From the NCBI GenBank assembly GCA_011526105.1, contig WYAZ01000034.1:1-64000 (forward strand): 64,000 nucleotides of DNA, read 5' to 3'. The position numbers were made by a program, and so were the translations under genes. Below, piece after piece: positions 28,602-45,665 of the stretch. The stretch comes from Deltaproteobacteria bacterium (GTDB taxonomy: Bacteria > Myxococcota > Kuafuiibacteriia > Kuafuiibacteriales > Kuafuiibacteriaceae). The notes beneath the pieces were generated by a model. That model saw only the letters and a list, made by a program, of their open reading frames with translations, searched no databases and was not told where the DNA came from. Numbering within the stretch: position 1 is the stretch's first letter; every line of letters begins with the position of its first letter.

Positions 28602-28602
28602 G

Positions 28603-28628
28603 ACGTCGCGAGAGGCCGAACGACGTCC
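28603..28628. terminator. Hairpin GACGTCG-N12-CGACGTC between convergent genes; possible bidirectional terminator
   Basis: Read directly: gacgtcgcgagaggccgaacgacgtc. It fills the 28-nt gap between the stops at 28601 (+) and 28630 (-). Confidence 0.3.
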
Positions 28629-28629
28629 T

Positions 28630-29502: not shown

Positions 29503-29584
29503 GGGCGCTCCGGCGCTCGAACACCCTAGCAGATCTCTGCGAGCCGAGCGGAGTCGCTGGAACGCCTGTGAGGCGAACGAACGC

Positions 29585-32748: not shown

Positions 32749-32884
32749 GACGCAGAATCTACACCAGCCCTCACTGTGGCGAGCAAGCGACCTCGGGTGG
32801 AATGCCCACCAGGTCGAGCCCGCCCAGACGAAATGCAGACCGCGCGCCGGTGTACTTCGAGATCGCTTGTGCTATCCGAAGCGC

Positions 32885-33760
32885 ATGGAGCTGGGCACGC
32901 GAGCCAAACCGGCATGGCGCGGTGCCGGGGTGTACGCGGCGGCTCTCTTGCCTTGCCTCGTCGCCGGCGTCCTTCGTGGGGGCCTGCCCCTCATCGCCCT
33001 CACGACGCTCGTGTCCGTGCTGACCGCGTTCCTCTTTGCGAAGCTGAGCAGCCGGCCTCGAATCCCCGGCGCTGGGCTGGCTGGGTTAATCTTCGCACTC
33101 ACGCTGCCGTCCGATACCCCGCTGCTGCAGGCCGCGGCCTCCATGGTGTTCGGACTCGTTGTCGCTCGCGAGATCTTCGGCAAAGTCGAGCGCAGCTTCG
33201 TCCACCCAGCCGTGCTCGCGCACGTGTTCCTGAGCCTCACCTGGCCGGGCGCACTCGCATCCGCGGCCCGATGGCTCCCACCGGACGGAGTCGTGCTCAC
33301 TCCCACGCTCGAGTCCATGCTGTTCACCTCGGCGGGCGGCGCCCTCGGCAACGCCTCCGCCCTCGCCTGCTTCATCGGCGCGGCAATCCTCCTCGTCTCG
33401 CGTCTCATCTCGTGGCGAGTGCTCGCGTCCATCCCCATCGGCGTGGCGGCCGGCATTGGACTCCTCGGACATCCGAGCGCCGCAGGACCGCTCTTCGTGT
33501 CGTCGCATCTTTTGCTGGGGGGTGCGCTGTTCGCGAGCGTGTTCCTCGCCGCTGACCCAGACAGCTCGCCGCGGGACCGCTCGGCGCAATGGTTCCACGG
33601 CTTCTTGGTGGGATTTCTCATCCTGCTTTTCCGAGTCACCGATCCATCCAGCCCCGACGGAGTCATCCCCGCGATCCTCATCGCGAGTGTGTTTGCGCCC
33701 CTGTTCGATCGAGCCGCGGTCGCCGGCCGGCGCGGCGTCGCCGGGGTGAGCCATGTCTGA
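32885..33760 (+). CDS. nqrB: Na+-translocating NADH:quinone oxidoreductase subunit B-like (NqrB/RnfD family); short form
   Basis: Homology blocks LIFALTLPSDTPLLQAAASMVFGLVVAREIFG, LAADPDSSP, LIASVFAPLFD match NqrB/RnfD. Only about 291 aa from the ATG at 32885 (an upstream in-frame TTG at 32867 is possible). The stop overlaps the nqrC start (ATGTCTGA). Confidence 0.75.
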   Translation: MELGTRAKPAWRGAGVYAAALLPCLVAGVLRGGLPLIALTTLVSVLTAFLFAKLSSRPRIPGAGLAGLIFALTLPSDTPLLQAAASMVFGLVVAREIFGKVERSFVHPAVLAHVFLSLTWPGALASAARWLPPDGVVLTPTLESMLFTSAGGALGNASALACFIGAAILLVSRLISWRVLASIPIGVAAGIGLLGHPSAAGPLFVSSHLLLGGALFASVFLAADPDSSPRDRSAQWFHGFLVGFLILLFRVTDPSSPDGVIPAILIASVFAPLFDRAAVAGRRGVAGVSHV

Positions 33761-34577
33761 GCACGCCACCACCGGCGCTTCAGGACGCGGTCCGCCGTCT
33801 CCGCGCAGCACGACCCTCCGCACGATCACGGTGACGCTCTTCGTGTGTCTCGCGTGTTCAATGCTGGTCTCCATCTCGACCGTGGTTCTGCGGCCCATCC
33901 AACGCGAGAACCAGAGACAGGCGCGCGAAGCTCAGATCGCCGCGATTTTGACCCGCGAGCCTGCGCTCCGCGAGTTGCTGGGCGACGTGAACACCGCCAC
34001 CCTCGAATCGCGCGTCGTCGAGCTCGTATCGGGGACGATCATGGAAGACATGGACGCCGCCGCGCTCGATCCGGTCCGCTCGGCGCGAGAGCCCGAATCG
34101 AGCCGAGAGCTCCCGGCCGAACGCGACCTTGCGCGCATCCAGCGCCAAGCGCGACACGTGGCCGTCACCTTCGTTCGACGCGAGGGGACGCTGCACGCCA
34201 TCGTGGTGCCAATCTACGGGCGCGGCTACGGCTCGATCATCCGAGGCTCGCTCGCGCTCGCGGGTGACGCCAACACGATCATCGGCCTCGCGATCAGCGA
34301 ACACGGTGAGACGCCGGGCATCGGCAGCGAGATCACCGAGCCCGAGTGGACCGGACTCTGGCCGGGCAAGAAGCTTCGAGACGACAAGGGCCAGCTGCGG
34401 ATTCACGTCGCACTCGATGAGACCAGCGCCGCAGCCGACGACGCCGAGTTTCACGTCGATGGCATCAGCGGCGCCACCAAGAGCTGCGACGGCGTAGGCA
34501 ACATGGTTCGGTTCTGGGTTGGCGAGGATGGGTTCGGACCGTTCTTAGGCCGCGTGGGAGGCGGAGAGATCCGATGA
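33753..34577 (+). CDS. nqrC: NADH:quinone oxidoreductase subunit C (FMN-binding)
   Basis: N-terminal TM. The FMN-attachment motif DGISGATKS (SGAT) is present. Confidence 0.8.
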   Translation: MSEHATTGASGRGPPSPRSTTLRTITVTLFVCLACSMLVSISTVVLRPIQRENQRQAREAQIAAILTREPALRELLGDVNTATLESRVVELVSGTIMEDMDAAALDPVRSAREPESSRELPAERDLARIQRQARHVAVTFVRREGTLHAIVVPIYGRGYGSIIRGSLALAGDANTIIGLAISEHGETPGIGSEITEPEWTGLWPGKKLRDDKGQLRIHVALDETSAAADDAEFHVDGISGATKSCDGVGNMVRFWVGEDGFGPFLGRVGGGEIR

Positions 34578-35197
34578 GTCGCTTCATCCAGACCCTCACG
34601 AGGCCCGTCCTCGAAGACAACCCCATCACAGTGCAGCTGCTGGGGCTCTGCTCCGCCCTCGCGGTCACCAAGAGCCTCGAGACCGCTTTCGCCATGAGCG
34701 CGGCGGTCGCCGCGGTGCTGGTGGGCAGCAACGCCGTCATCAGCCTGCTCCGAGGAGTCATCCCGCACCCCACGCGCCTCGTCGTCCAGATCACGATCAT
34801 CGCCTCGATGGTGATCGTCACCGACCAGCTCATCGCGGCCTTTGCCCCCGAGCTCAGCCGCCAGCTCTCCATCTTCGTGAGCCTCATCATCACGAACTGC
34901 ATCATCCTCGGGCGCGCCGAGGCCTTTGCGATGACGCATGGCGTGACCGAGAGCATCGCCGACGCCCTCGGCAATGCGCTCGGCTATCTCCTGCTCCTGA
35001 CTTGTGTCGGGGCCATCCGTGAGCTGCTGGGCCGGGGCGCGCTCTTCGGGCATCAGCTTCTGCCTTTGGCTCGAGAGGGCGGCTGGTTTCAGCCGCTCGA
35101 GATCTTGCACCTGCCCCCGGCCGGCTTCTTCCTCATCGCGCTCTTCATCGGCCTGTCGAGTGTCCTGCGGAATCGCAGCGCAAAGGCGGCGCCATGA
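34574..35197 (+). CDS. nqrD: NADH:quinone oxidoreductase subunit D
   Basis: Strong similarity to NqrD (LEDNPITVQLLGLCSALAVT...IITNCIILGRAEAFAM...). 4-nt overlap with nqrC. Confidence 0.85.
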   Translation: MSRFIQTLTRPVLEDNPITVQLLGLCSALAVTKSLETAFAMSAAVAAVLVGSNAVISLLRGVIPHPTRLVVQITIIASMVIVTDQLIAAFAPELSRQLSIFVSLIITNCIILGRAEAFAMTHGVTESIADALGNALGYLLLLTCVGAIRELLGRGALFGHQLLPLAREGGWFQPLEILHLPPAGFFLIALFIGLSSVLRNRSAKAAP

Positions 35198-35808
35198 TGA
35201 CGCTCTTCCTCGAGGCGGTGTTCGTCGAGAACCTCGCGCTCGCCTTCTTCCTCGGGATCTGCACGCTGCTCGGAGGCTCACGCCGGCTTTCCACCGCAGT
35301 CGGGCTGGGCATCGCGATCACGGTGGTCATGACCATCACGCTCCCGATCAACCACCTCATCCATCGCTTCCTTCTCGCGCCGGGCGCCTGGGCGTGGGCC
35401 GGCATGGCCGAGCTTGACCTCAGTCATCTGTCGCTCATCTGCTTCATCGGATCGATCGCCGCGATGGTGCAGATCCTCGAGATGGTCCTCGATCGCTTCT
35501 TTCCCGCCCTCGCCCGCGGCCTCGGGATCTTCTTGCCGCTCATCACGGTCAACTGCGCCATCCTCGGCGGCTCACTGTTCATGGTCGACCGGCACTACGA
35601 CCTCGGCCAAACGGTCGTGTATGCGGTCGGCAGCGGGGTCGGATGGGCCCTCGCGGTGGCCGCACTCGCCGCGATCCGTGAACGGGTCGACGGTGAGCAT
35701 CTCCCGGAGGGCTCGGCCTCGGATTCTGCCAGCCAGGCCCTCGTGTTTGCGGTGATTGGCATCATGTCGACGGCCTACATGGCCTTCTCCGGGGTGCGTC
35801 TGCCATGA
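35194..35808 (+). CDS. nqrE: NADH:quinone oxidoreductase subunit E
   Basis: FVENLALAFFLGICTLL...LPLITVNCAILGGSLF is NqrE/RnfA-like. 4-nt overlap on each side. Confidence 0.85.
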   Translation: MMTLFLEAVFVENLALAFFLGICTLLGGSRRLSTAVGLGIAITVVMTITLPINHLIHRFLLAPGAWAWAGMAELDLSHLSLICFIGSIAAMVQILEMVLDRFFPALARGLGIFLPLITVNCAILGGSLFMVDRHYDLGQTVVYAVGSGVGWALAVAALAAIRERVDGEHLPEGSASDSASQALVFAVIGIMSTAYMAFSGVRLP

Positions 35809-37028
35809 CCGAGGTCGTCATGACCGTGGTCCTCTTCAACGGGATCATCTTGGTGTTCACCGCGTTGATCCTGATCGCGCGCGCGCTCGTGGTGGGCACC
35901 GGCACCGCCCGGATCACGATCGACGGACGCGAGCCCTTCGAGACCGAGCTCGGACGCAAGCTCCACAACGTGCTCATGGATGCCGGCATCCCCATCGCCG
36001 CCGCCTGCGGCGGAAAGGGCACCTGCGGCTTGTGTCGCGTGCGAGTCAGCGGTGTGCTCGACCCGCCCCTGGCCACCGAGCTGGCGATCCTCGACGAACA
36101 CGCGCTCGCCCGAGGCCTTCGCCTCTCGTGCCAGATCACGACCCGCGGCGATCTCGAGGTCGGACTGCCCGAGGGCCTGCCCACCCACCAGGAGCTCGAG
36201 TGCCGCGTGCGTTCGTCGCGCAACCTGACCCCGCTCATCAAAGAGATCGTGCTCGAGCTCCCCGAGGGCGCCTCCTTCCAGTTTCGCGCCGGGAGCTTCG
36301 TCCAGATCAACTGCCCGCCGCATCAAACCGTCCTTGGACGAGTGCCGGTCGACGAGTCGTGCCGCGCCGCCTGGGATGCGCTGGGGATCGATCACCTCGT
36401 CGCGAACTGCCCGCAGCCCACGAGCCGCGCCTACTCGATGGCGAATCACCCGGGTGAGGGGCACTTCATCATGTTGCTGGTTCGCCTCGCGCTGCCCCCG
36501 CCGGGCGTGCCACCAAACACGCCGCCCGGCCTCGTCTCGAGCTATCTGTTCAGCCTCGAACCAGGCCGAACCGTGCGGCTCAGCGGACCCTTCGGCCACT
36601 TCGTCGCGACCGACACCGACAAGGAGATGATCTTCGTGGGCGGCGGCGTGGGCATGGCCCCCATGCGGGCCCACGTCTTCGAGCAGCTCGAGTTTCTCCA
36701 TAGCCAGCGAAAGATCAGCTTCTGGTACGGAGCCCGCTCGGAACGCGAGCTGATCTACGCGGAAGAGTTCGAGGCCCTCGCGAAGAAACACCCCAACTTC
36801 ACATGGTCCGTCGCGCTGTCGGAGCCCAGCCCCGACGACGAATGGCACGGCGCAGTCGGCTTCATCCACGATCACCTGCACCGCTCCTATCTCGCGGGCC
36901 ATGCGGCACCGTCGGACTGTGAGTACTATCTATGCGGACCGCCTTTGATGGTGCGCGCGGTGGTGGCGATGCTCGAGCGCTTGGGCGTGAGCCGAAGCTC
37001 GGTGTTCTATGATGACTTTGGCGGCTGA
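35805..37028 (+). CDS. nqrF: NADH:quinone oxidoreductase subunit F (2Fe-2S ferredoxin + FAD/NAD(P)-binding reductase)
   Basis: N-terminal TM. Ferredoxin Cys cluster CGGKGTCGLCRV...C, RAYSMAN (FAD) and GGGVGMAPMRAH (NAD) motifs. This subunit is diagnostic of Nqr as opposed to Rnf. Confidence 0.85.
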   Translation: MTEVVMTVVLFNGIILVFTALILIARALVVGTGTARITIDGREPFETELGRKLHNVLMDAGIPIAAACGGKGTCGLCRVRVSGVLDPPLATELAILDEHALARGLRLSCQITTRGDLEVGLPEGLPTHQELECRVRSSRNLTPLIKEIVLELPEGASFQFRAGSFVQINCPPHQTVLGRVPVDESCRAAWDALGIDHLVANCPQPTSRAYSMANHPGEGHFIMLLVRLALPPPGVPPNTPPGLVSSYLFSLEPGRTVRLSGPFGHFVATDTDKEMIFVGGGVGMAPMRAHVFEQLEFLHSQRKISFWYGARSERELIYAEEFEALAKKHPNFTWSVALSEPSPDDEWHGAVGFIHDHLHRSYLAGHAAPSDCEYYLCGPPLMVRAVVAMLERLGVSRSSVFYDDFGG

Positions 37029-37049
37029 GGCCCAAGGAGCAGAAGACTC

Positions 37050-37445
37050 ATGATCCAAACGGCGCGCGTAGAGGAGTTCATGGCGAGAGAGCTCGTGGTG
37101 GTCAGGCCCAACACGGAGATCCACGAAGCGGTCGCACTCATGCTCGATCGGCGCGTCTCCGGACTGCCGGTCGTGGACGAGGGCGGTCACCTCGTCGGCA
37201 TCCTGACCGAGCAAGACTGTTTGAGAGTCGCCTTTCAGAGCCACTATCATCAGGCGCCGGCGGGCACGGTGGCGAACGCCATGACCTCGAATCCCACGAC
37301 CATCGATGCCCAAGACGACATCATGACCGCGATCGACGTCTTCCTTCGGGCCTCGTTTCGGAGACTCCCGGTGCTCGCCGGGGGCACGCTGGTCGGCGTG
37401 CTCAGCCGCCGCGATGCGCTCCGGGTGCTCAGGACGCAGGCTTGA
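37050..37445 (+). CDS. CBS-pair domain protein
   Basis: Two CBS motifs (GLPVVDEGGHLVGILTEQD and RLPVLAGGTLVGVLSRRD). Confidence 0.75.
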   Translation: MIQTARVEEFMARELVVVRPNTEIHEAVALMLDRRVSGLPVVDEGGHLVGILTEQDCLRVAFQSHYHQAPAGTVANAMTSNPTTIDAQDDIMTAIDVFLRASFRRLPVLAGGTLVGVLSRRDALRVLRTQA

Positions 37446-37761
37446 GGGACATGAGCCACTTCGAGAGCGCGTTCAACTCGGCTTCTTCGCCCCGAAACTT
37501 CGGCGGATGCAGCTTGTCCTCGAGCTTCTCTTTCTTCTCGAGATAACGAACGAGCCAATCGAGCTTTCGCTTCGTCGAGAGTCCAGAGAGATCCGAGATC
37601 TTCATCTCGGCGCTGTCCTTCTGGAGCGCCACGATGCCTTCGCTCTTGATGCTGTGGCAGACGTTGCACTTCTTCGCGAGGAAGACCTTCTTCCCGTCTG
37701 GCTCTTCGCCCGCCGCGGCCAACGAGAGGGAGAGGCTGAGAATGTGGCTCAAAAGGGTCAT
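37429..37761 (-). CDS. Small secreted mono-haem c-type cytochrome
   Basis: The ORF is trimmed to the ATG at 37759-37761 (MTLLSHILSLSLSLAAAGEE signal). A single CxxCH motif (CNVCH). Overlaps the 3' end of the CBS gene convergently by 17 nt. Confidence 0.6.
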   Translation of the reverse strand: MTLLSHILSLSLSLAAAGEEPDGKKVFLAKKCNVCHSIKSEGIVALQKDSAEMKISDLSGLSTKRKLDWLVRYLEKKEKLEDKLHPPKFRGEEAELNALSKWLMSLKPAS

Positions 37762-37944
37762 CGCTCGCTCCGATCCGGGCCTCGTTCGGCCCGAGCTGTT
37801 CGTCCTCACCGCGACGCGCGATTGAGACGGTACTTCGTCGAACTATCTTTCGGGGGGATCGTAGGCAAGCCGAACCGAAAAAGGGATACCCGTCAGACCC
37901 CGCGAGATTTGCCGCCGTCCGCACGTTCCGGCATCATTCGCGCG

Positions 37945-38865
37945 GTGGTGCCGTTCGCCGCATCCTGGGTCGTCGCTGCGATCGCCGCATCGAGCCCCGC
38001 GGACACTGGCACCCCGATCATCATCTTGCTGCCCGCCGAGAGCCAGACGGCTTCGGTTGCGGCGGCCTATCTCCAGAACGAGCTCGAGCTCGTGCTTCAG
38101 CTCGAGACCGCGTCTTTGGATGAACCTCGAGCGCTGCTGGCGCGGGCGCGCTCGAAGTGGCCCTCGGCCCTGATCGTGCTTCTGCACCCGGACCGCAACG
38201 AGACCTGGATGTCTCGCCCGCATGAGGCGGAGCCGGTGGTGCGCCGCCTCAATCATCCGCCCGGGAGCTCCGCGTATCCCCTCGCGATCGCGGCCGCGGA
38301 GCTCGTTCGAAACGCCACCGCGCCCAAACCCTTGCCGCCCAAACCCGAGCTGGAGCTCGCGTTCTCGGTGGGGCTCGGCATCTCGGGGTCTCCGGGCGTC
38401 GAGCGAACCTTGGCGCAGCCGGTCTTCGGTCTGGAGTTGCGCCTCGGAACGCACGGGCTTTGGAGCTCGGTCGGGCTCCGGGTCCGCGGGCCTTCTTCCT
38501 CGAACACCGACGTCGGCGGCAACATCTTCGTGGACTACAGCCGCACCGACCTCGCGCTGCAGCTCGGCTTCGGTCCAGAGCTCGACCGCTGGCACCTCGC
38601 CCTGCTCGTCGAGGCCGGACTGAGCGTGGTCTCGGTCGATGCGCAGCGGGGGGCCGAACTTCTCGGCTCGAACCGCCGTCTGCCCTTCTGGCTCGGCTTG
38701 GGCGCGCAGATACGCCGGCCGCTCTTCTCAGGCTTGGGTGCGGTGGTGTGTGTGGAGCTGATCCGCGTGCTCAGCCCAGCGGACTTTCGCGGCGGGCCGG
38801 ACATCGTCTTTTCGGAGGGGGATTGGCGACTTCAGTCGCAAGCGGCCCTGGAGTGGGTGCTGTGA
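37945..38865 (+). CDS. Hypothetical secreted protein (beta-rich)
   Basis: The long ORF 37414..38865 is antisense to the cytochrome gene at its 5' end. In-frame GTGs at 37945 and 37948 give VVPFAASWVVAAIAASSPADTG (signal-like). The start is uncertain. Confidence 0.4.
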   Translation: MVPFAASWVVAAIAASSPADTGTPIIILLPAESQTASVAAAYLQNELELVLQLETASLDEPRALLARARSKWPSALIVLLHPDRNETWMSRPHEAEPVVRRLNHPPGSSAYPLAIAAAELVRNATAPKPLPPKPELELAFSVGLGISGSPGVERTLAQPVFGLELRLGTHGLWSSVGLRVRGPSSSNTDVGGNIFVDYSRTDLALQLGFGPELDRWHLALLVEAGLSVVSVDAQRGAELLGSNRRLPFWLGLGAQIRRPLFSGLGAVVCVELIRVLSPADFRGGPDIVFSEGDWRLQSQAALEWVL

Positions 38866-38941
38866 ACGCCATCGGTCTTTCTCACTTTCTGGGGATGCGG
38901 CGACTGACTGCAGGTGGGATCCTTCCCCTTCGAGATCCGGC

Positions 38942-39547
38942 GTGACGGCAGAAGTGATGTCCCAGGACGCACCGACTCCCGCCAGGCCTTCGCTGGTCGC
39001 ACGGGCCAAGGCCGGCGATCCCGCGGCTCTAGCCGAGCTGGTGCGGACGGAAAGCCCCAAAGTGGCGGGTCTGCTCGTGCGGCTTCTCGGTCCCCGGCAG
39101 GATCTCGAGGACCTGGTTCAGATCGTGTTCCTCGAGCTCTGCCGAGCGCTGCCCGGCTTTCGCGGCGACAGCAGCATCTCGACCTTCATCGGGGGAATCG
39201 CGGTTCAGGTCGCGCGACGCGCGATGCGCCCGACCGCCTGGCAACGACGCCGCGCCGAGTGGCCCAAGACGGAACCCGCCTCTTTGGAGTCCGACCCCGA
39301 GGACCAGGTGAGTCTCCGCGATCAGATTCGGCGGCTCCACGAACTGCTCGAAGAAGTACCGCCCAAGAAACGAGTCGCCTTCCTTCTTTGGGCGGTGGAT
39401 GGCCGCACCGCCGACGAGGTCGCGACCCTCACGAAGTGCAGCCTCCCCACCGCTCGCAAGCGCATCTACGACGTGCGGCGACAGCTCCGCGACCGGGCCC
39501 AGGGCGACCCGTTGCTCGCGCACTGGGTCGGTGAGGAGGTCCCATGA
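38942..39547 (+). CDS. RNA polymerase sigma-70 factor, ECF subfamily
   Basis: Region 2 (DLVQIVFLEL...) and region 4 (ADEVATLTKCSLPTARKRIYDVRRQLR). 4-nt overlap with the downstream anti-sigma gene. Confidence 0.85.
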   Translation: MTAEVMSQDAPTPARPSLVARAKAGDPAALAELVRTESPKVAGLLVRLLGPRQDLEDLVQIVFLELCRALPGFRGDSSISTFIGGIAVQVARRAMRPTAWQRRRAEWPKTEPASLESDPEDQVSLRDQIRRLHELLEEVPPKKRVAFLLWAVDGRTADEVATLTKCSLPTARKRIYDVRRQLRDRAQGDPLLAHWVGEEVP

Positions 39548-40761
39548 TCGACCCCAAAGAACAGCGGCGCGACCGCGAGTTCGCCGCCTTCGGCAACGAC
39601 GCGCTCAGCTCGTCCGCGATCGATCGGCTCGCGGAACGCATCGCCGCCGACGGCCCTCGGGTCGTCCGCCGCGCAAAGTTCGTGCGCACCGCGGTGCGTG
39701 TCGGCCCGGTGGTCGCGCTCCTCCTCTTTGCGTTGATCTGGGGAACACGCCCTGGTCCGCCGCCGGCGGCTCCGGCTTTGGCCGACAGCACCCGAGCGTG
39801 CGAGCGCTGGTCTCCGATATCGACCTCGGCGATCTCGTCCGGCCGCATCGACCTTGGGCACCTCGGCGAAGGACGAAGCTCCGAAGAAGCCAGGATCGAC
39901 CTTCGGGTGGCAGAACGCTGCCGCACCGTCCTCCACCTCGCGCAGGGCTCGGTGGCCATTCACGCGAAGGACCTCGGCGGCGGAACGCTCATCGTCGAGA
40001 CGCCGCAGGGCCGAGCTCGAGTCGTGGGAACGATCTTCTCGGTCTCGCAGCGCGGTGAGGTCTTTGCGGTCGAAGTCGTCGAGGGCACGGTCGAAGTCGA
40101 AGCTCACGAAGAGCAAATCTTGCTGCGGGCCGGAGAACGCACCGCCCTCGCCGAAGGCCGACTGAAGACGCGAGCCATGACAGAGACCGAGCGCGAGGCG
40201 CTTCTGATCGGAGTTCGAGACGGCCTAGCTCAGGCCGACGAATCGGAAGCTCTGTTCGATGGGGCGGAGCTCGACGCGCCCTCGGAGTCTCCCGAAACCG
40301 CGCGCCCCCGGGTGAGGCCCAACCGCCGCAACGCCGAACGGAAGACGAAAGTCGACGACCACGCACCCGCGGTGTCCCCCCCCCCGACCTCCGAGAGCGC
40401 GGAGCAGCTCGTCGCGCGGGCCGCCCAGCTCAAGACGAAGGCGCCTGATGCGGCACGGGCCCTGTACCTTCGGGCGGGCTCGATGTCCGGACCGACGGCA
40501 GAGGCGGCCTGGATCGCGCTCGCGCGGCTCGAGCTCTCTCGTGCACGTCCCGCATCCGCGGTCGACGCGCTCAATGATCGCCAGCGACGTTTCCCTTCGG
40601 GCGGCATGGTCCTCGAGGCCGCTGGCATCGAGCTCGAGGCTCTGCACGCCCTCGGCAAGTCGGAGGCGGTGCGGCGCCTCGCTCGCGAGATCGTCGATCG
40701 CTGGCCCGAATCTCAGCAGGCCAAGAAAGCCGAGAGCCTGCTCGACCGGAAGCCTCGATGA
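39544..40761 (+). CDS. Anti-sigma factor, FecR-domain, single-pass membrane protein
   Basis: TM VGPVVALLLFALIWG. FecR-like beta region (GGGTLIVETPQGRARVVGTIFSVSQ). C-terminal TPR-like helical region. Confidence 0.7.
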   Translation: MIDPKEQRRDREFAAFGNDALSSSAIDRLAERIAADGPRVVRRAKFVRTAVRVGPVVALLLFALIWGTRPGPPPAAPALADSTRACERWSPISTSAISSGRIDLGHLGEGRSSEEARIDLRVAERCRTVLHLAQGSVAIHAKDLGGGTLIVETPQGRARVVGTIFSVSQRGEVFAVEVVEGTVEVEAHEEQILLRAGERTALAEGRLKTRAMTETEREALLIGVRDGLAQADESEALFDGAELDAPSESPETARPRVRPNRRNAERKTKVDDHAPAVSPPPTSESAEQLVARAAQLKTKAPDAARALYLRAGSMSGPTAEAAWIALARLELSRARPASAVDALNDRQRRFPSGGMVLEAAGIELEALHALGKSEAVRRLAREIVDRWPESQQAKKAESLLDRKPR

Positions 40762-42719
40762 TCTCAGCCCGACTTTGGGGCCGAGCGTGCCTCGGCCTGC
40801 TGTTGCTCGTCGCGTGTGACCGACGCGAGATCCTGTTGTTCGACGCGAGCGGTCCCCCCGAGCTGGCCGGGATTCGACGCGTCGAAGTCCGGCCCTCGAT
40901 GGCCACCGTCGTCGCCGACGGCCGGACACGGCCCGCCGATCTCGCGTTTCAGGCGATCGGCATCTTCGAGGACGGAGAGCGCGACATCACCTCGCTCACG
41001 ACGTGGAGGCTCTCCCGCCCCGAGCTGGGCACGGTCGGCGTCGGCGTGTTCCGCGCACACGGCACGATCGGTGGGGACACCATGATCGGCGCGCGAGTGG
41101 GAGACCTCGATGCAGAGGCGTCGATCCAGGTGCAGCTCTCGGTGACGGACCTCGATCCTTCGGCGCCCGGTGACGCGATGGCCTTCTTCCCCGAGAACAT
41201 CTCGGGTGATGCCCTGCGCAGCAGCCCCACCATCATCTATCCGAGCGACAGCACCACGTTCCCCAAAAACGTCTCGAACACGCTCTTTCAGTGGCACGAC
41301 TCGGCCGGCTCGGATCTGTTTGAGGTTCGCTTCGACAGCGCGGTGGCGAGCATCCGGCACTATACCAAGGACCGAAGTTTCGCTCTCGATGACCTGGCCC
41401 GAGGGTGGCTCCCCCATACACACTCAGGTCGATCGCTCACCATGACGGTTCGAAGCGTCTCCACGACCTCCACCGGCACCGTCTATCGCTCGGACGCCAT
41501 TGAGCTTCACTATTCCGCTTCAGACGTGAGCGGCGCGATCTACTACTGGTCGACGGGTGCTCGCGGCATCATGCGCGCCTCACTCGATCGCGAGGCCGCG
41601 GTGGCCTTCTACCCTGGACCCGAGAGCGACCGCTGCGCGTCGTGCCACACCGTCTCTCGCGACGGACGGCGCCTCGCGGCGGCGTATGACGGCGAGAAGC
41701 TCCGCGTCGTTTCGATCCCCGAGAATCAACTCATCGAGCCTCCCTCCGGGGCCTCCGAGGCGGAGTTCGGCTGGGGCAGCTTCGACCCGAGCGGCGAGCG
41801 GCTCATCATCGCGCACAAGGGCCGCCTGAGCATGCTCACCGTGGGGTCCGGGGCACGCGCCGACGTCCCGCTCCCTTCGGGCTTTTATGGGACCCATCCC
41901 GACTGGTCGCCCGATGGTCGGCAGATCGCGCTCGCGGTGGCGGACAAGTCGACGAACAACAAAGACACTAAAGGGACGAGCCTCGCGCGCTTGCTCGTGC
42001 AGCCCGATGGGTCCATCTCCGGCCTCGAGGTGCTCGAGCCCAGCCTGGCCGATGACGACACCCTCGTCTTTCCGAGCCACTCGCCGGACGGTCGCTGGAT
42101 CGCGTTTGTTCGCGCGCGCGGCAAGTCCAAGGACAACCGTGAGGCCGAGATCTATCTCATCCGCTCGGACGGAACTGGACCCACCATCTTGCTCGAGGCG
42201 CTCAACCGAAGGGTGGGGCCTGAAAGCGGGGTGCGTTCGATCAGCAACTCGATGCCCACGTGGGGCCCGACCCTCGGCACCGGGATGGACTGGCTCGCGT
42301 TCTCGTCCACACGCGACTACGGCGCCGTGATCGTCGATACGAAGCGCGATCAGCTCTGGAGTGCGGTCATCGATCTCTCCAAAGCTGCGAGCGGCGTCGA
42401 CCCCAGCGGCCCCGCCTACTGGCTGCCATTTCAACAGACTGAGGAAGGTAATCATCGCGCGTTCTGGACATCGAACCCTAACGACGAATGCCCCTCGACC
42501 ATCGAGCTCTGCAACGGAGTCGACGACGACTGCGACGGTGTGGTCGACGAGGACTGCTGTACGTCCGTGGAGGAGATCTGCGGCGATGGCATCGACAATG
42601 ACTGCGACCTCGCCCGCGACGAAGGCTGTGGCTGCACCGACACCGAAGACTGCACCAACCGCCTCGACGACGACTGCGACGGACTCATCGACCTGGAAGA
42701 CGAGGACTGTGGGGTATGA
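40758..42719 (+). CDS. Lipoprotein with a TolB-like beta-propeller region and C-terminal MopE-like Cys-rich (putative metal-binding) repeats
   Basis: Lipobox LLLVAC. Repeats SPDGRQIA / SPDGRWIAF typical of TolB/WD40-like propellers. C-terminal CNGVDDDCDGVVDEDC, CGDGIDNDCDLARDEGC and CTNRLDDDCDGLIDLEDEDC. 4-nt overlaps place it in the sigma/anti-sigma operon. Confidence 0.7.
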   Translation: MISARLWGRACLGLLLLVACDRREILLFDASGPPELAGIRRVEVRPSMATVVADGRTRPADLAFQAIGIFEDGERDITSLTTWRLSRPELGTVGVGVFRAHGTIGGDTMIGARVGDLDAEASIQVQLSVTDLDPSAPGDAMAFFPENISGDALRSSPTIIYPSDSTTFPKNVSNTLFQWHDSAGSDLFEVRFDSAVASIRHYTKDRSFALDDLARGWLPHTHSGRSLTMTVRSVSTTSTGTVYRSDAIELHYSASDVSGAIYYWSTGARGIMRASLDREAAVAFYPGPESDRCASCHTVSRDGRRLAAAYDGEKLRVVSIPENQLIEPPSGASEAEFGWGSFDPSGERLIIAHKGRLSMLTVGSGARADVPLPSGFYGTHPDWSPDGRQIALAVADKSTNNKDTKGTSLARLLVQPDGSISGLEVLEPSLADDDTLVFPSHSPDGRWIAFVRARGKSKDNREAEIYLIRSDGTGPTILLEALNRRVGPESGVRSISNSMPTWGPTLGTGMDWLAFSSTRDYGAVIVDTKRDQLWSAVIDLSKAASGVDPSGPAYWLPFQQTEEGNHRAFWTSNPNDECPSTIELCNGVDDDCDGVVDEDCCTSVEEICGDGIDNDCDLARDEGCGCTDTEDCTNRLDDDCDGLIDLEDEDCGV

Positions 42720-42775
42720 CGCCCTGGTCTTCTCATTTTTCGTCGGTCCGGCGACTCACTGCCATGGAGTTCAAA

Positions 42776-43519
42776 ATGACCAAAAATCTGTCTCATCTCC
42801 TGCTCGTGCTCCCCATCACCGCGCTCGGCATCACCGCCTGCGGCGGAGGTGGGAGTTCTGAATACGACCCCATCGCCACCGGGCTCTCCGGCCTGATGGC
42901 CGACCCAGACGCGGGCGAGACCCAAACCTTCAAAGACCTGGTCCTCGCGTGGCGTGGCCAGACCCCGGTCGACCTCAGCCTCGACGGCGACGACATCTAC
43001 GTGGGGCGCCGCGGGGAGCTCGACTTCCGATTTGAGCTCGACTGCCTCGACACCAGCGCCAAGATCGTGCGCTGCGACGCGAAGTCGGACGCCGACGCCA
43101 AGATCAGCTGGAAGGGGAAGATCGAGAACACGCGCCACAAGCTCGAGATCGACCGCAACGCCAGGATCAAGGTGACCTCCTTGGATGAGAACCGCCTCCG
43201 CATCCAAGGCGACCTCGACTACTCCATCCAGTCGGACTTCAAGGACAAGGACGAGGACTACCGCCACAAGTACGACTTCGATGCGGACGCGAAATACGAC
43301 GTGGTGGTCATGCGCTCCGATGGCGCGATCGAGTCGGGCAAGCTCGAGGCCGATATCCAGGCCAAGGAAAAGCTCGAAGAGGACGACACCAAGATCAAGT
43401 CCGAGCTCAAGACGAAGATGGTCGTGACCTTCCTGGATGGAGAGACCTCGGAGGTCGACTTCGACAGCAAGTCGAAGTACAAGCTGCACCTCGTGAACGG
43501 GGCGCTGGAGCTCGAGTAG
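42776..43519 (+). CDS. Hypothetical lipoprotein (Asp/Lys-rich)
   Basis: MTKNLSHLLLVLPITALGITACGGGG lipobox. An alternative ATG lies at 42764. Confidence 0.55.
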   Translation: MTKNLSHLLLVLPITALGITACGGGGSSEYDPIATGLSGLMADPDAGETQTFKDLVLAWRGQTPVDLSLDGDDIYVGRRGELDFRFELDCLDTSAKIVRCDAKSDADAKISWKGKIENTRHKLEIDRNARIKVTSLDENRLRIQGDLDYSIQSDFKDKDEDYRHKYDFDADAKYDVVVMRSDGAIESGKLEADIQAKEKLEEDDTKIKSELKTKMVVTFLDGETSEVDFDSKSKYKLHLVNGALELE

Positions 43520-43553
43520 TCGAGTTCGCTTCCCACCCCGGGGCGACCCCCGT

Positions 43554-44023
43554 ATGAAGTCGATCCTCTACGATGACGCGCTGACGGCGGTGCTGCCGCA
43601 AGATCGAAGGGCGCGCGAAAGCGTAGCTCATGCCAGTTGAGGCGCCCTGATCTCTCATCGAGTACCCCTCCTCGCTCTCCGATTCGCACGTTCCGCGCAC
43701 GCGGAAGCACAGCCTCCACGACATGCTCGACATCACCATCTGTGAGAGGCTCTGTGGTGTAGAAGGAGAGCTTGTCGCCCTCGATGCAAAGACGCTCCGA
43801 CACTTCTTCGACCCCGCCTCCGGACGCGCCGCGATTCACATGGTGAGTGCGTGAGCGACCGAGAACCGCGTGGTGCTCGGGCAGGTCAGAACAGCCGACA
43901 GGTCGAATGAGATCACCGCGATTCCTCGGCTTCTCGAGCTACTGAAACTACGGTGCGGCGCCGTGACCATCGACGCGATGGGACGAGGCGTACCCGCTCC
44001 GCCTGCTCGGCATTCACGTTTGA
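43554..44023 (+). pseudogene. ISAs1-family (YhhI / H-repeat-associated, DDE_Tnp_1) transposase remnant. It is N-terminally truncated, carries frameshifts and stops, and has an internal deletion
   Basis: Translated fragments: SILYDDALTAVL, ELVALDAKTLRHFFDPASGRAAIHMVSA, (stop) [41 protein letters not shown]. These correspond to YhhI blocks DVIAIDGKTLRHSYD..RGAIHVISA and [37 protein letters not shown]. It then jumps to the family C-terminal tail RWDEAYPLRLLGIHV*. Confidence 0.7.
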
Positions 44024-44101
44024 TGCGATCGCCCTGGCGATTGCCCGGCCCCGAATCCTGTGCCATACGACACAGATAGATGACCTCAGACGGATAAACA
44101 G

Positions 44102-45157
44102 ATGTCCTCGAACATACTTGCAATACGGTTCTCGGCTCTTGGCGATGTTGCTATGACATTGCCAGTGCTGTATTCGGCTGCAAGAGCACACCCCAACCAC
44201 ATGTTCTATGTGCTCACTTCAAAGTCCTTTGCAGACCTATTTACAAACCAGCTACCCAACATGGAACCGATCGGAGTCGACCTGGAGGAGTATCGAGGAG
44301 TAAGTGGGTTGATGCGACTCGCCAGAAAGACCCGCACGAGCTACGCGATAGATGCAGTTGCTGACTTGCACGATGTCATGCGAAGTCAGGTGCTGCGCAC
44401 CTACTTCATGATAGGTGGCAAACGTGTTGCATACATCCGAAAAGAGAGATCCACGAAGAAAGCAATCATCAAACGCAAAGCCCCGTTGGCTCCCGTCAAG
44501 CACTCAATAGATAGGTACAGGGATGTGTTTTCGCAACTCGGACTAGAGGCCGAAATGAGCTTCACGTCCTATTTCGAGAGCCAGCCTCGCCCTCTGGAGC
44601 AGCTGAAAAGCCTGTCCTTCAACACGGGAAAGACGAACCTAGGTATTGCCCCCTTTGCTACGTACGCAGAGAAGGTGTACCCGATTGATAGAATGGAAGA
44701 GGCGGTGAAGGCCATCTCCGAAAGAGACAACACCCATATCTATCTATTTGGAGGGGGAAGCAAAGAGAAAGATAAACTGGAGGAGTGGGAGGCTAAGTAT
44801 TCGAATGTAACATCGGTGGTAGGCAAACTGTCGTTGAAGCATGAATTGCTTCTAATTTCTTTTCTGTCTGTTCTCGTCTCCATGGACTCGGCCAATATGC
44901 ATCTGGCATCGTTGGTCAACACACCCGTACTTTCCATTTGGGGCGCTACGCATCCATATCTAGGCTTCTATGGTTTCAAACAGTCCCCTCGTGATGCCGT
45001 GCAGTTGTCCGACCTCGATTGTCGCCCGTGTTCTGTGTTCGGCAATGTGCCCTGTTGGCGTGGCGACCATGCCTGCATGAACGGCATACCGGCACAAGCA
45101 GTTATCGACAGAATCGAAATGATGCTTCAGGAATACGACAGACCATCCTCGCGATGA
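44102..45157 (+). CDS. Glycosyltransferase family 9 (ADP-heptose:LPS heptosyltransferase-like), in a low-GC island
   Basis: N-terminal ILAIRFSALGDVAMTLPVL and C-terminal VSMDSANMHLASLVNTPVLSIWGATHP are GT9 signatures. About 48-50% GC with an A/T-rich third codon position, against about 70% in the flanks. No Shine-Dalgarno (aaacagATG). Confidence 0.85.
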   Translation: MSSNILAIRFSALGDVAMTLPVLYSAARAHPNHMFYVLTSKSFADLFTNQLPNMEPIGVDLEEYRGVSGLMRLARKTRTSYAIDAVADLHDVMRSQVLRTYFMIGGKRVAYIRKERSTKKAIIKRKAPLAPVKHSIDRYRDVFSQLGLEAEMSFTSYFESQPRPLEQLKSLSFNTGKTNLGIAPFATYAEKVYPIDRMEEAVKAISERDNTHIYLFGGGSKEKDKLEEWEAKYSNVTSVVGKLSLKHELLLISFLSVLVSMDSANMHLASLVNTPVLSIWGATHPYLGFYGFKQSPRDAVQLSDLDCRPCSVFGNVPCWRGDHACMNGIPAQAVIDRIEMMLQEYDRPSSR

Positions 45158-45276
45158 AGAGATCTCGAGGCGAACTCGATCGCGCCCCTCATCTCTGTAG
45201 ACGTCCCGTGAAGCCTTTGTGACGCCAAGATCGAATCTCTCGAGCGTAGCGACCGGTTCCTTCTCCCCCCCGCGAT

Positions 45277-45521
45277 GACGACCGTGCGGTTGACTCTGCT
45301 CGGCACCGCCAAAGAGAGCTTCGGGCTCGATCGACAGCTGAGGGGCAGTACCGACAAGCGACGATTCAAGGTCACGGGGCGAAAAGCCCCTGGACGCTAC
45401 GCCGCATCGCCCTCAACCTCTTGAAGCAGGACACGGGCGAGAAGGTCGGGGTCAAGAGCAAGCGCTCGCCGCGCGATGGGACAAGGGCTACATGCTCCAC
45501 TTGCTCGGCATCCACGTTTGA
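45277..45521 (+). pseudogene. Second ISAs1-family transposase remnant (C-terminal roughly 85 codons only, frameshifted)
   Basis: Fragments TVRLTLLGTAKESFG..LDRQLRGSTDKRRFKVTGRKAP...LRRIALNLLKQDTGEKVGVKSKRSP...ARWDKGYMLHLLGIHV*. These match the YhhI C-terminus TVRYYISSADLTAEKF...[22 protein letters not shown]...[33 protein letters not shown]. Confidence 0.6.
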
Positions 45522-45665
45522 TGCGATTGCCCTGGTTCCGGCCTCGGGGCATTCACGGGGTTCGGGGCCCCGACCCCGGGGCCCGCCACGCAGGTTTCCC
45601 TTGCGTGTCCCCCTCGAGCCGAGTCATCTGCGAACCGAGCCACCCGCCGCGGCTCGAGAAGCTCC

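What the first reader, a model, noticed from the sequence alone, without database searches (positions are those of the whole stretch)
44050..45160. Single-gene low-GC island: a Bacteroidota-like GT9 heptosyltransferase inside a 70%-GC genome
GC drops abruptly from about 70% to about 48-50% for exactly one gene (44102-45157) and recovers within 10 bp of its stop. Codon third positions are A/T-rich, whereas the flanks are nearly all G/C-ending. The ATG is preceded by aaacag with no Shine-Dalgarno, which fits a Bacteroidota origin. The N-terminal block ILAIRFSALGDVAMTLPVL is the classic GT9 signature. This looks like a recent horizontal acquisition of an LPS-core/glycan-modifying enzyme from a distant phylum. 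The alternative is a chimeric assembly
Basis: seen in the sequence. Interest (0 to 1): 0.75.

Follow-up and report, generated by a model that had tools for sequence, protein, structure and literature searches.

The report
Bacteroidales sugar-transferase gene in a myxobacterium
One cell-envelope sugar-transferase gene (family GT9) from the distant phylum Bacteroidota really was transferred into this high-GC, probably myxobacterial, chromosome, next to dead insertion-sequence copies, and it seems to have been kept working; this is a clean but fairly ordinary case of cross-phylum gene transfer.

Summary
The low-GC island is real. The 1056-bp ORF at 44102-45157 has GC 0.506, against 0.652 +/- 0.020 for all other windows of that size (z = -7.5). 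It is not an assembly chimera: at least 9 independent public assemblies reproduce the junctions, including a 99.35%-identical strain.

The protein is a GT9 glycosyltransferase with a GT-B fold. E. coli WaaC is its closest solved structure, and the key residues are conserved. All of its relatives are Bacteroidota, up to 80% identical in Bacteroidales metagenome contigs of 41% GC.

Donor-type DNA starts 48 bp before the ATG. It still carries the last codons of DUF4254, the gene directly upstream of this GT9 in 72 of 76 Bacteroidota genomes. That fixes the direction of transfer.

The fragment lies between two degraded ISAs1-family transposase remnants that share a 64-nt direct repeat. It sits at the edge of a 17-kb block that is absent at this position in a related species.

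The transfer is not recent:
- dS to the nearest relative is 1.26.
- Substitutions on the window's branch are biased towards G/C (73 against 24).

The gene looks maintained:
- All 70 highly conserved columns are intact.
- It shows one synonymous difference between strains, against about 10 per kb in the IS remnants.

"Heptosyltransferase" is unproven, because orthologues head heptose-free Bacteroides core clusters. I rate it a new member of a known kind, of modest interest.

The parts
42776..43519 (+). Last host-type gene before the island: a hypothetical protein of 247 aa (267 aa if read from 42716), GC3 0.88.
   Evidence: ORF list; gene calls on independent contigs L004-L007; composition.
43630..44037 (+). 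Upstream ISAs1-family transposase pseudogene, heavily deleted. Residues ~1-46 lie at 43630-43767 and residues ~104-178 at 43759-43983. The 3' end of the element is at 43974-44037. It has an in-frame stop and host-like GC of about 0.62.
   Evidence: NCBIfam NF033564 transpos_ISAs1, E 4e-23 to 2e-25; tblastn with 120 real ISAs1 transposases; six-frame reading.
43974..44037 (+). Left copy of the 64-nt direct repeat (last codons of the transposase plus the element terminus).
   Evidence: the repeat finder family D1: two copies, 86% identical, spacing 1498. The 27-mer search finds only these two sites in the window, against 0 expected.
44054..44101 (+). Donor-derived leader. It holds a remnant of the last codons and stop of the Bacteroidales DUF4254 gene (with a 1-bp deletion) and the ~23-nt DUF4254-GT9 spacer. 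Weak similarity may begin at ~44043, 6 bp after the IS terminus.
   Evidence: blastn homology to L089-L092 starts at 44054; alignment A2; the compositional change point is also 44054.
44102..45157 (+). GT9 glycosyltransferase gene, 351 aa, intact, GC 0.506. Residues D15, K191, E222, D262 and H267 align with WaaC D13, K192, E222, D261 and H266. It has an invariant C307/C310/C318/C325 motif.
45158..45366 (.). Unassigned spacer. The first ~80 bp keep intermediate GC (0.56-0.58) and may be donor 3' flank. No significant homology was found to donors or to transposases.
   Evidence: Strain differences occur at 45176 and 45264.
45367..45535 (+). Downstream ISAs1-family remnant: the C-terminal ~55 residues (frameshifted) plus the right copy of the 64-nt direct repeat at 45472-45535. 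Five independent assemblies break at 45533.
   Evidence: tblastn E about 1e-8 with 76 HSPs; contig ends.
45666..47600 (+). First host gene after the island: an ABC-F ATPase, GC3 0.86. Synteny with the related species resumes here, at 45665.
28603..45664 (.). 17-kb block absent at this position in a related species, where window 28602 adjoins 45665. The IS remnants and GT9 form its right-hand edge. The rest of the block has host-like composition.
   Evidence: blastn of L096-L098 against the window; gene content.

Best explanation
This is a genuine cross-phylum horizontal transfer that is no longer recent.

A DNA fragment from a Bacteroidales bacterium entered the chromosome of an uncultivated high-GC bacterium, most likely a member of Myxococcota. 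The fragment originally contained at least the conserved gene pair DUF4254-GT9. ISAs1-family insertion sequences of host-like composition sit on both sides. The terminus of one of them lies within about 6-16 bp of the truncated DUF4254 gene. IS insertion and IS-mediated deletion or rearrangement therefore most likely trimmed the foreign DNA down to a single gene and placed it at a synteny breakpoint. This step is inferred. Both IS copies have since decayed, so the island is now immobile.

The retained gene encodes a GT-B-fold glycosyltransferase of family GT9. It belongs to the Bacteroidota subfamily that heads the lipooligosaccharide core cluster (BT3362-like, by inference from synteny).

The most likely mechanism is that of WaaC. 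The conserved Asp15 would act as the base, and the C-terminal domain (K191, E222, D262, H267) would hold a nucleotide-sugar. The enzyme would transfer the first core sugar onto Kdo of Kdo-lipid A. That sugar may not be heptose; rhamnose is the residue at this position in Bacteroides. In the new host this would alter the LPS inner core. This step is also inferred.

The gene is probably transcribed by read-through from the co-oriented upstream genes and translated from its donor-type, SD-less, A-rich leader. Neither has been tested.

Shown: that it is foreign, the direction of transfer, the junctions, the IS remnants, an intact and conserved enzyme, partial amelioration, and low variation between strains. 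Inferred: the acceptor, the donor sugar, expression, and the order of the IS events.
For: Real junctions:
- Contigs from independent SRA runs match window 42876-46781 at 99.3-100% identity and carry the same junctions: eight loci, plus L100.
- L006 (a 99.35% strain) and L008 span both sides.

Foreign origin:
- The best hits are Bacteroidales at up to 80% identity.
- All 80 GTDB hits are Bacteroidota at <=49%, apart from one probably misbinned contig.
- Donor-type contigs have GC 0.36-0.42.
- The flanking ABC-F protein has Myxococcota relatives.

Direction of transfer:
- DNA homology to donors begins at 44054, inside the 3' end of DUF4254.
- DUF4254 lies directly upstream in 72 of 76 Bacteroidota loci.

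IS context.

Absent from a relative: a related species joins window 28602 directly to 45665.

Enzyme:
- Pfam GT9 scores 89 bits.
- WaaC is the best PDB sequence hit (E 1.5e-11), with catalytic residues aligned.
- The AlphaFold2 model has pLDDT 90 and pTM 0.89.
- Foldseek places WaaC, the V. parvula GT9 and WaaF on top (E 6.5e-18 to 1.4e-14).

Maintained by selection:
- dN/dS against the nearest relative is 0.088.
- There are 0 deviations at 70 columns that are >=95% conserved in 117 homologues.
- One synonymous difference occurs in 1104 bp between strains, against 9-10 per kb in the flanking pseudogenes.

Age and amelioration:
- dS is 1.26.
- W>S changes are 73 against 24 S>W on the window branch, compared with 19 against 38 on the sister branch.

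Role of the subfamily: the Phocaeicola orthologue heads the cluster DUF4254-GT9-Kdo kinase-lipid A acyltransferase-GLF-GTs. This matches the BT3362-BT3380 LOS cluster, in which BT3362 is essential (PMC5850320).
Against: - No expression data are available.
- The simple scan found no sigma-70-like promoter in 43400-45800, and there is no clear SD.
- Codon adaptation is poor (CAI 0.378).
- The conserved partner DUF4254 and the Kdo kinase were not co-retained, and no LPS genes lie nearby.
- The window branch carries four times more amino-acid changes than its sister branch (42 against 10). Its non-synonymous to synonymous counts are 30:38 against 4:30 (Fisher p = 0.0015). This could mean relaxed constraint rather than adaptation.
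- The strain comparison rests on one divergent strain and small counts.
- No vector was found: plasmid and phage hits are <=48% identical.
- No intact copy or left end of the IS was found, so the IS-mediated history is a reconstruction.
- Assignment of the host to Myxococcota rests on one protein with 57-60% identity to named MAGs.
Confidence: 0.8

Rival explanations
1. Real transfer, but the gene is a functionless passenger. It was stranded between dead IS copies and has not yet been inactivated.
For: - The gene is orphaned from DUF4254 and the Kdo kinase.
- No promoter-like site or SD was found.
- CAI is 0.378 with 9.4% rare codons.
- Non-synonymous change on its branch is elevated.
Against: - The 351-codon ORF is intact despite a long residence, as shown by dS 1.26 and the directional GC shift.
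- None of the 70 near-invariant family positions has changed.
- The adjacent IS genes, under no selection, are riddled with stops, frameshifts and deletions.
- Between strains there is one synonymous difference, against about 10 per kb in the flanking pseudogenes.
Confidence: 0.15
2. Assembly chimera or contamination: a Bacteroidales read cluster was wrongly joined into a high-GC contig.
For: The composition switches abruptly. Repeats lie at 43974-44037 and 45472-45535, and several assemblies break there.
Against: - At least nine assemblies from different sequencing runs give identical junctions.
- Two of them (L006, L008) cross both junctions, and L100 crosses the right one.
- L006 is a distinct strain with 34 differences.
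- The gene is only 79% identical in DNA to any Bacteroidales sequence found, and it is compositionally shifted towards the host. A contaminant would not show this.
Confidence: 0.01
3. Native or vertically inherited gene whose low GC is due to selection or local mutation bias. Alternatively, transfer in the opposite direction, from Myxococcota to Bacteroidales.
For: None specific. GC3 (0.58) is intermediate rather than donor-like.
Against: - The gene nests among Bacteroidales sequences. Identity runs from 80% down to 45% across the phylum, with no named non-Bacteroidota relative except misbinned contigs.
- It carries the tail of the Bacteroidota-specific neighbour DUF4254.
- The pair is conserved in 72 of 76 Bacteroidota genomes.
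- The locus is absent from the related species.
Confidence: 0.02

Closest known systems
E. coli WaaC (RfaC), LPS heptosyltransferase I, CAZy GT9 (PDB 2GT1, 2H1F, 2H1H, 6DFE)
   Same: - GT-B fold.
- Best sequence hit (E 1.5e-11) and best structural hit (Foldseek E 6.5e-18, TM 0.66-0.74) among solved structures.
- The N-terminal G-D motif is conserved, and K, E, D and H of the nucleotide-sugar site align.
- The position of orthologues at the head of core clusters suggests the same step, adding the first sugar onto Kdo.
   Different: - Only about 20% identical.
- Scores 70.9 bits against the 185.3-bit equivalog cutoff.
- Has an extra C-terminal Cys4 motif.
- The motif next to the catalytic Asp is DSANMH, not DTGLSH.
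- Its home phylum builds heptose-free inner cores (PMC13508109), so the donor sugar may differ.
Bacteroides thetaiotaomicron BT3362, an essential putative heptosyltransferase that heads the LOS oligosaccharide cluster BT3362-BT3380 (PMC5850320)
   Same: It is the same Bacteroidota GT9 subfamily as judged by synteny. The 48%-identical Phocaeicola orthologue is followed by a Kdo/WaaP-family kinase, a lipid A acyltransferase, UDP-galactopyranose mutase and further GTs.
   Different: - The BT3362 sequence itself was not compared here.
- The window copy stands alone in a foreign genome, without DUF4254, the kinase or any core cluster.
- Its closest (80%) relatives also carry the DUF4254-GT9 pair outside a core cluster.
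ISAs1-family (H-repeat) insertion sequences flanking horizontally acquired surface-polysaccharide genes, such as the rfb regions of Salmonella and Vibrio cholerae (from my own knowledge, not checked here)
   Same: ISAs1 transposase remnants bracket a horizontally acquired envelope-glycan gene of atypical GC.
   Different: - Both copies are decayed fragments in direct orientation.
- No intact element, left end or target duplication was found.
- The cargo is a single gene from another phylum.

Membership tests
CAZy GT9 / Pfam PF01075 Glyco_transf_9 | Match to the family profile above the curated threshold | tested here: met
   PF01075 scores 89.4 bits against a gathering score of 22, E 3e-25, residues 80-286.
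CAZy GT9 / Pfam PF01075 Glyco_transf_9 | GT-B two-Rossmann-domain fold closest to solved GT9 enzymes | tested here: met
   The AlphaFold2 model has pLDDT 90.1 and pTM 0.89. The top nine Foldseek PDB hits are all GT9: WaaC, V. parvula 3TOV and WaaF 1PSW.
CAZy GT9 / Pfam PF01075 Glyco_transf_9 | Catalytic and nucleotide-sugar residues of WaaC (D13, K192, E222, D261, H266; roles recalled from the WaaC literature) | tested here: met
   The phmmer alignment to 2GT1 pairs D15, K191, E222, D262 and H267 with them. D15, K191, D262 and H267 are invariant and E222 nearly so (>=90%) in 56 homologues.
LPS heptosyltransferase I/II/III (WaaC, WaaF, WaaQ equivalogs) | Score above the NCBIfam equivalog cutoff | tested here: not met
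   TIGR02193 scores 70.9 against a cutoff of 185.3, TIGR02195 49.8 against 134.6, and TIGR02201 48.1 against 170.2.
LPS heptosyltransferase I/II/III (WaaC, WaaF, WaaQ equivalogs) | Uses ADP-L-glycero-D-manno-heptose; heptose present in the core made by the lineage | not testable with these tools
   No assay is possible. Published Bacteroides and Phocaeicola inner cores are Galf-(1->3)-Rha-(1->5)-Kdo without heptose (PMC13508109), which argues against it for the donor lineage. The 64-kb window holds no GT9 paralogue; it was not scanned for ADP-heptose pathway genes.
Bacteroidota core-cluster GT9 subfamily (BT3362-like) | Closest relatives are Bacteroidota, with identity decaying across the phylum | tested here: met
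   Identity is 80% to Bacteroidales MAG proteins and 43-49% to Phocaeicola, Dysgonomonas, Chitinophaga and others.
Bacteroidota core-cluster GT9 subfamily (BT3362-like) | DUF4254 gene immediately upstream on the same strand | tested here: not met
   Present in 72 of 76 Bacteroidota loci. In the window only the last ~45-60 bp survive, and there is no DUF4254 elsewhere in the window. The remnant shows that the pair was there originally.
Bacteroidota core-cluster GT9 subfamily (BT3362-like) | Followed by a Kdo/WaaP-family kinase and core glycosyltransferases | tested here: not met
   True for Phocaeicola L009. It does not hold for the window. In the nearest relatives L089 and L093 the contigs end about 0.5 kb after the gene with nothing called there, and in L094 the next gene is an oppositely oriented SDR.
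Bacteroidota core-cluster GT9 subfamily (BT3362-like) | Direct orthology to the BT3362 sequence | not tested
The link is by cluster synteny and the description in PMC5850320.
ISAs1-family insertion sequence | Transposase homologous to the ISAs1 family | tested here: met
   NF033564 scores 82-89.7 bits against a cutoff of 70 for the upstream remnant. The downstream remnant gives tblastn E about 1e-8 against real ISAs1 transposases.
ISAs1-family insertion sequence | Intact transposase ORF and two terminal inverted repeats (a functional element) | tested here: not met
   There are stops, frameshifts and large internal deletions. No left inverted repeat was detected.
Horizontally acquired genomic islet | Atypical composition, phylogenetic incongruence, association with mobility genes, and absence from a related genome | tested here: met
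   z = -7.5; Bacteroidota relatives inside Myxococcota-like flanks; IS remnants; absent at the homologous site of the related species.
Composite transposon | Cargo between two complete IS copies with a target-site duplication | tested here: not met
   Only 3'-end fragments in direct orientation flank the cargo. Neither copy is complete, and no flanking target duplication was seen in the repeat finder.

The most novel reading that the evidence does not exclude
The orphaned Bacteroidales core-initiating GT9 has been retooled in its new host. It has been cut off from its near-obligate partner DUF4254 and from the Kdo kinase. It carries 42 lineage-specific amino-acid replacements, yet every family-invariant position is intact. 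On this reading it now installs a Bacteroidota-type first core sugar, or glycosylates a new acceptor, in a myxobacterial envelope. That would change the surface recognised by phages, prey or competitors. If the host is predatory, this would be a gene captured from prey DNA and kept by selection.
Probability: 0.15. Interest if true: 0.55.

Novelty: new member of a known kind. Interest (0 to 1): 0.33.

Why it matters
The case is unusually well delimited, and several things can each be read directly from the sequence:
- the donor clade;
- the direction of transfer, from the stump of the donor's neighbouring gene;
- the junctions, resolved to within a few bases;
- the associated insertion sequences;
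- partial amelioration;
- signs of purifying selection.

That makes it a useful worked example of how single envelope-glycan genes cross phylum boundaries, and of how IS activity trims foreign DNA to one selectable gene.

It also offers a natural experiment on the Bacteroidota DUF4254-GT9 pair. Here the GT9 appears to persist without DUF4254, which bears on whether that uncharacterised partner is needed for activity.

It does not reveal a new kind of system. Transfer of glycosyltransferases between phyla, and IS-flanked surface-polysaccharide genes, are both well known.

Tried and rejected
- tRNA scan and Rfam scan of the whole window found nothing, so this is not a tRNA-targeted island.
- The promoter and terminator scan of 43400-45800 found no promoter-like site. 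It found only two terminator-like hits, both inside the gene and at chance level.
- I searched for the host genome among GTDB representatives with the GT9 protein.
- I looked for an intact copy of the IS with the stitched remnant. The best hits were only 68% identical over 46% of the query, so the element's full length and ends remain unknown.
- A local alignment for a left inverted repeat gave only a chance-level 13-nt match.
- The downstream remnant alone gave no NCBIfam hit. It was confirmed instead by tblastn.
- I aligned the region after the stop codon with donor 3' flanks. The result was not distinguishable from noise, so the right-hand end of donor DNA is known only from composition, 44981-45269.
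- I tried to polarise the 17-kb indel with more distant relatives, but there is no conserved synteny.
- Plasmid and phage collections gave no close copy and therefore no vector.
- Literature searches turned up nothing useful: DUF4254 has no functional study, the SRA run numbers give no hits, and there are no Myxococcota-Bacteroidota transfer papers on this gene.
- A 'GT9' hit in PMC13508109 turned out to be 'GT90', and that paper's supplements are not held.
Full report
OBSERVATION

- Its GC content is 0.506. All other 1056-bp windows of the 64-kb sequence average 0.652 (sd 0.0196, minimum 0.600), so z = -7.5.
- Third-position GC is 0.58, against 0.78-0.88 for the four neighbouring genes.
- A codon adaptation index trained on 12 neighbouring genes gives 0.378 for this gene and 0.62-0.79 for the others. 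Rare codons make up 9.4% against 0-3%.

Three details in the finding are inaccurate.
- The background is about 65% GC, and 60-64% just outside the gene, not 70%.
- The low-GC segment starts about 48 bp before the ATG and fades over about 80-100 bp after the stop. The maximum-likelihood boundaries are 44054 and 45236.
- Third positions are not A/T-rich in absolute terms.

IS IT AN ASSEMBLY ARTEFACT? NO

The exact protein, or the same protein called from a later start codon, is encoded on contigs assembled independently from many sequencing runs. All of them match the window across the junctions.
- L001-L005, L007 and L008 are 99.96-100% identical to the window.
- L006 is a different strain, with 34 differing alignment columns (31 substitutions and one 3-bp insertion) over 5.2 kb.
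- L006 and L008 cross both junctions, and L100 crosses the right one.

In addition, the gene is only 79% identical in DNA to the nearest Bacteroidales sequence, and its composition is shifted towards the host. A contaminant would show neither feature.

WHAT THE GENE IS

The protein matches Pfam Glyco_transf_9 (89 bits, E 3e-25). It falls far below the curated cutoffs of every NCBIfam heptosyltransferase equivalog.

The closest solved structures by sequence are E. coli WaaC and a Veillonella GT9 (E 1.5e-11 and 1.2e-9). D15, K191, E222, D262 and H267 align with WaaC D13, K192, E222, D261 and H266.

An AlphaFold2 model built on 56 homologues is confident (pLDDT 90.1, pTM 0.89). Its nine best PDB matches are all GT9 enzymes: WaaC, 3TOV and WaaF.

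An invariant motif, C307-x2-C310-x7-C318-x6-C325, sits in the C-terminal region. The iron-finger GT9 enzyme TibC is among the more distant fold hits.

WHERE IT CAME FROM

The best 120 protein hits carry only Bacteroidota names wherever a name is given. The single exception is one probably misbinned Saccharimonadaceae contig.
- Identity is 80% to a cluster that contains a Bacteroidales MAG protein.
- It is 61-76% to further unnamed metagenome proteins and 45-57% to Dysgonomonadaceae, Prevotella, Parabacteroides and others.
- A scan of one genome per species returned 80 loci, all Bacteroidota apart from one odd MAG label, at 43-49% identity.
- Contigs carrying the closest relatives have GC 0.36-0.42.

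In every donor-type context examined, the gene is preceded by a 200-aa DUF4254 gene on the same strand. Across the GTDB loci this holds for 72 of 76 with enough upstream sequence.

Nucleotide homology between the window and the closest relatives runs from 44054 to 45119 at 78.7% identity. It therefore begins inside the last codons of DUF4254 and includes the 23-nt spacer. The alignment shows the remnant '...AATCC-GTGC-TACG...ATAG', with a 1-bp deletion.

This stump of the donor's neighbouring gene, together with the phyletic pattern, fixes the direction of transfer as Bacteroidales to host.

THE HOST

The flanking ABC-F protein has a 100% match on a 135.8-kb NCBI contig. It has an 84% match in a related species. 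Its best named relatives, at 57-60%, are Myxococcota, Myxococcales or 'Deltaproteobacteria' MAGs.

The upstream 653-aa protein carries MopE-like Cys-rich repeats. Assignment to Myxococcota is therefore likely, but it rests on modest identities.

THE SURROUNDINGS

The 580 bp upstream and 510 bp downstream of the gene are not ordinary intergenic DNA.

Upstream, 43630-44037 is a heavily deleted ISAs1-family transposase pseudogene.
- NCBIfam NF033564 gives E 4e-23 to 2e-25.
- tblastn with real ISAs1 transposases maps residues 1-46 and about 104-178.

Downstream, 45367-45535 is the C-terminal ~55 residues of another copy, which is frameshifted.

The two copies share a 64-nt direct repeat, at 43974-44037 and 45472-45535. 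The copies are 86% identical, and no further copy exists in the window. The repeat covers the last codons of the transposase and the element terminus.

Five independent assemblies stop at 45533 and one starts at 45505. This implies that further copies of this repeat exist elsewhere in the genome.

The upstream IS terminus (44037) lies 6-16 bp from the first donor-derived base. Both remnants have host-like GC.

In a related species (about 79% nucleotide identity), window position 28602 is directly joined to 45665. The IS remnants and GT9 therefore lie at the right-hand edge of a 17-kb block (28603-45664) that is absent there. I could not polarise this difference, because more distant relatives share no synteny.

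HOW OLD, AND IS IT MAINTAINED?

Against its nearest known relative (L089), dN is 0.111 and dS is 1.26, giving omega = 0.088. Either the true donor lineage is unsampled or the transfer is old. In neither case is it recent relative to anything in the databases.

Using L093 as outgroup, changes on the window's branch are strongly biased towards G/C: 73 W>S against 24 S>W, and 41 against 14 at third positions. The sister branch shows the opposite bias, 19 against 38. This is the signature expected of amelioration in a 65% GC genome. An unsampled donor of intermediate GC cannot be excluded.

The window's branch also carries more protein change. It has 42 amino-acid replacements against 10. At single-branch codons the non-synonymous to synonymous counts are 30:38 against 4:30 (Fisher p = 0.0015). 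That fits relaxed constraint or adaptation after transfer.

Even so, the window protein deviates at none of the 70 columns that are >=95% conserved among 117 homologues.

Between the two host strains, the donor-derived fragment (44054-45157) has a single synonymous difference, 0.9 per kb. The flanking IS pseudogene regions have 9-10 per kb. A further variant differs by one residue, V192M.

Together, an intact ORF next to thoroughly decayed IS genes, untouched invariant positions and low strain-level variation favour a gene under purifying selection in its new host. The strain sample is small.

LIKELY FUNCTION

In Phocaeicola faecalis the 48%-identical orthologue heads the cluster DUF4254 - GT9 - Kdo/WaaP-family kinase - lipid A acyltransferase - UDP-galactopyranose mutase - glycosyltransferases.

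This matches the B. thetaiotaomicron LOS oligosaccharide cluster. Its first gene, BT3362, is a WaaC/WaaQ homologue and is essential (PMC5850320).

Bacteroides and Phocaeicola inner cores are beta-Galf-(1->3)-alpha-Rha-(1->5)-alpha-Kdo, with no heptose (PMC13508109).

By analogy with WaaC, which puts heptose on O5 of Kdo, I infer that this subfamily adds the first core sugar to Kdo. That sugar need not be heptose. The label 'heptosyltransferase' is therefore an annotation habit, not a finding.

In the host the enzyme would most plausibly modify the LPS inner core. This is inference: no LPS genes lie nearby, and the partner gene and kinase were not retained.

Expression is unknown.
- All neighbouring genes from 40758 to 47600 are on the + strand, so read-through transcription is possible.
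- No sigma-70-like promoter was found.
- The leader is donor-derived, A-rich and lacks a clear SD.

RECONSTRUCTION (INFERRED)

1. A Bacteroidales fragment with at least DUF4254-GT9 entered the cell. The vector is unknown, and no close copy exists on known plasmids or phages.
2. An ISAs1 element inserted into, or recombined at, DUF4254.
3. IS-mediated deletions and rearrangement removed the remaining foreign DNA and left the gene at a synteny breakpoint.
4. The IS copies then decayed while the GT9 was kept.

VERDICT

It is neither recent nor demonstrably a heptosyltransferase, and the island includes IS remnants and a stump of the donor's neighbouring gene.

This is a new member of a known kind, an IS-associated, horizontally acquired envelope glycosyltransferase. 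It is well documented but not surprising to a specialist. Interest 0.33.

Noticed in passing
window 28603-45664: A 17-kb block is absent between the His_Phos_1 gene and ABC-F in a related species (L096-L098, about 79% nt identity). It holds three minus-strand genes, an NQR Na+-translocating NADH:quinone reductase operon, a CBS protein, cytochrome c, ECF sigma/FecR/PD40-MopE, orf247, the IS remnants and GT9. Apart from GT9 its composition is host-like. Whether it is an insertion here or a deletion there is unresolved.
   Followed up: partly
window 45505-45535 (also 43974-44037): Five independent Logan contigs end at 45533 and another begins at 45505, inside the 3' end of the IS. This implies additional copies of this ISAs1-family repeat elsewhere in the genome. 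No intact copy was recovered.
   Followed up: partly
window 40758-42719: The 653-aa PD40/MopE-like Cys-rich protein accounts for 21 of the 34 differences between the window and strain L006 (12.5 per kb). That compares with 0-2.5 per kb in orf247 and ABC-F, so it may be a fast-evolving surface protein.
   Followed up: no
loci L009-L088 (Bacteroidota genomes); L089, L093, L094: DUF4254, which has no functional literature, lies directly upstream of this GT9 subfamily on the same strand in 72 of 76 genomes. This is a near-obligate gene pair whose role in core biosynthesis appears unstudied.
   Followed up: partly
GT9 protein residues 305-327 (window ~45014-45082): The invariant motif D-C-R-P-C-x7-C-x6-C (C307, C310, C318, C325; H323 is conserved in the closest relatives but variable in the wider set) lies in a region of lower model confidence. 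It resembles the metal-binding Cys finger of some GT9 enzymes; TibC appears among the fold hits.
   Followed up: no
P0030; L043: Bacteroidota-type copies of this GT9 are labelled 'Candidatus Saccharimonadaceae' and 'Citrobacter freundii' MAGs. These are most likely misbinned contigs rather than further transfers.
   Followed up: no
window 47609-48463 (-): An N6/N4 DNA methyltransferase (284 aa) with no adjacent restriction gene is called, and it is conserved at the same position in the related species. It is probably an orphan methylase.
   Followed up: no
window 44261 and ~44216: Automatic gene callers on other assemblies started this gene at internal Met codons (298- and 318-aa products). 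This drops the N-terminal motif that holds the catalytic Asp15. Public annotations of this gene are therefore probably truncated.
   Followed up: yes
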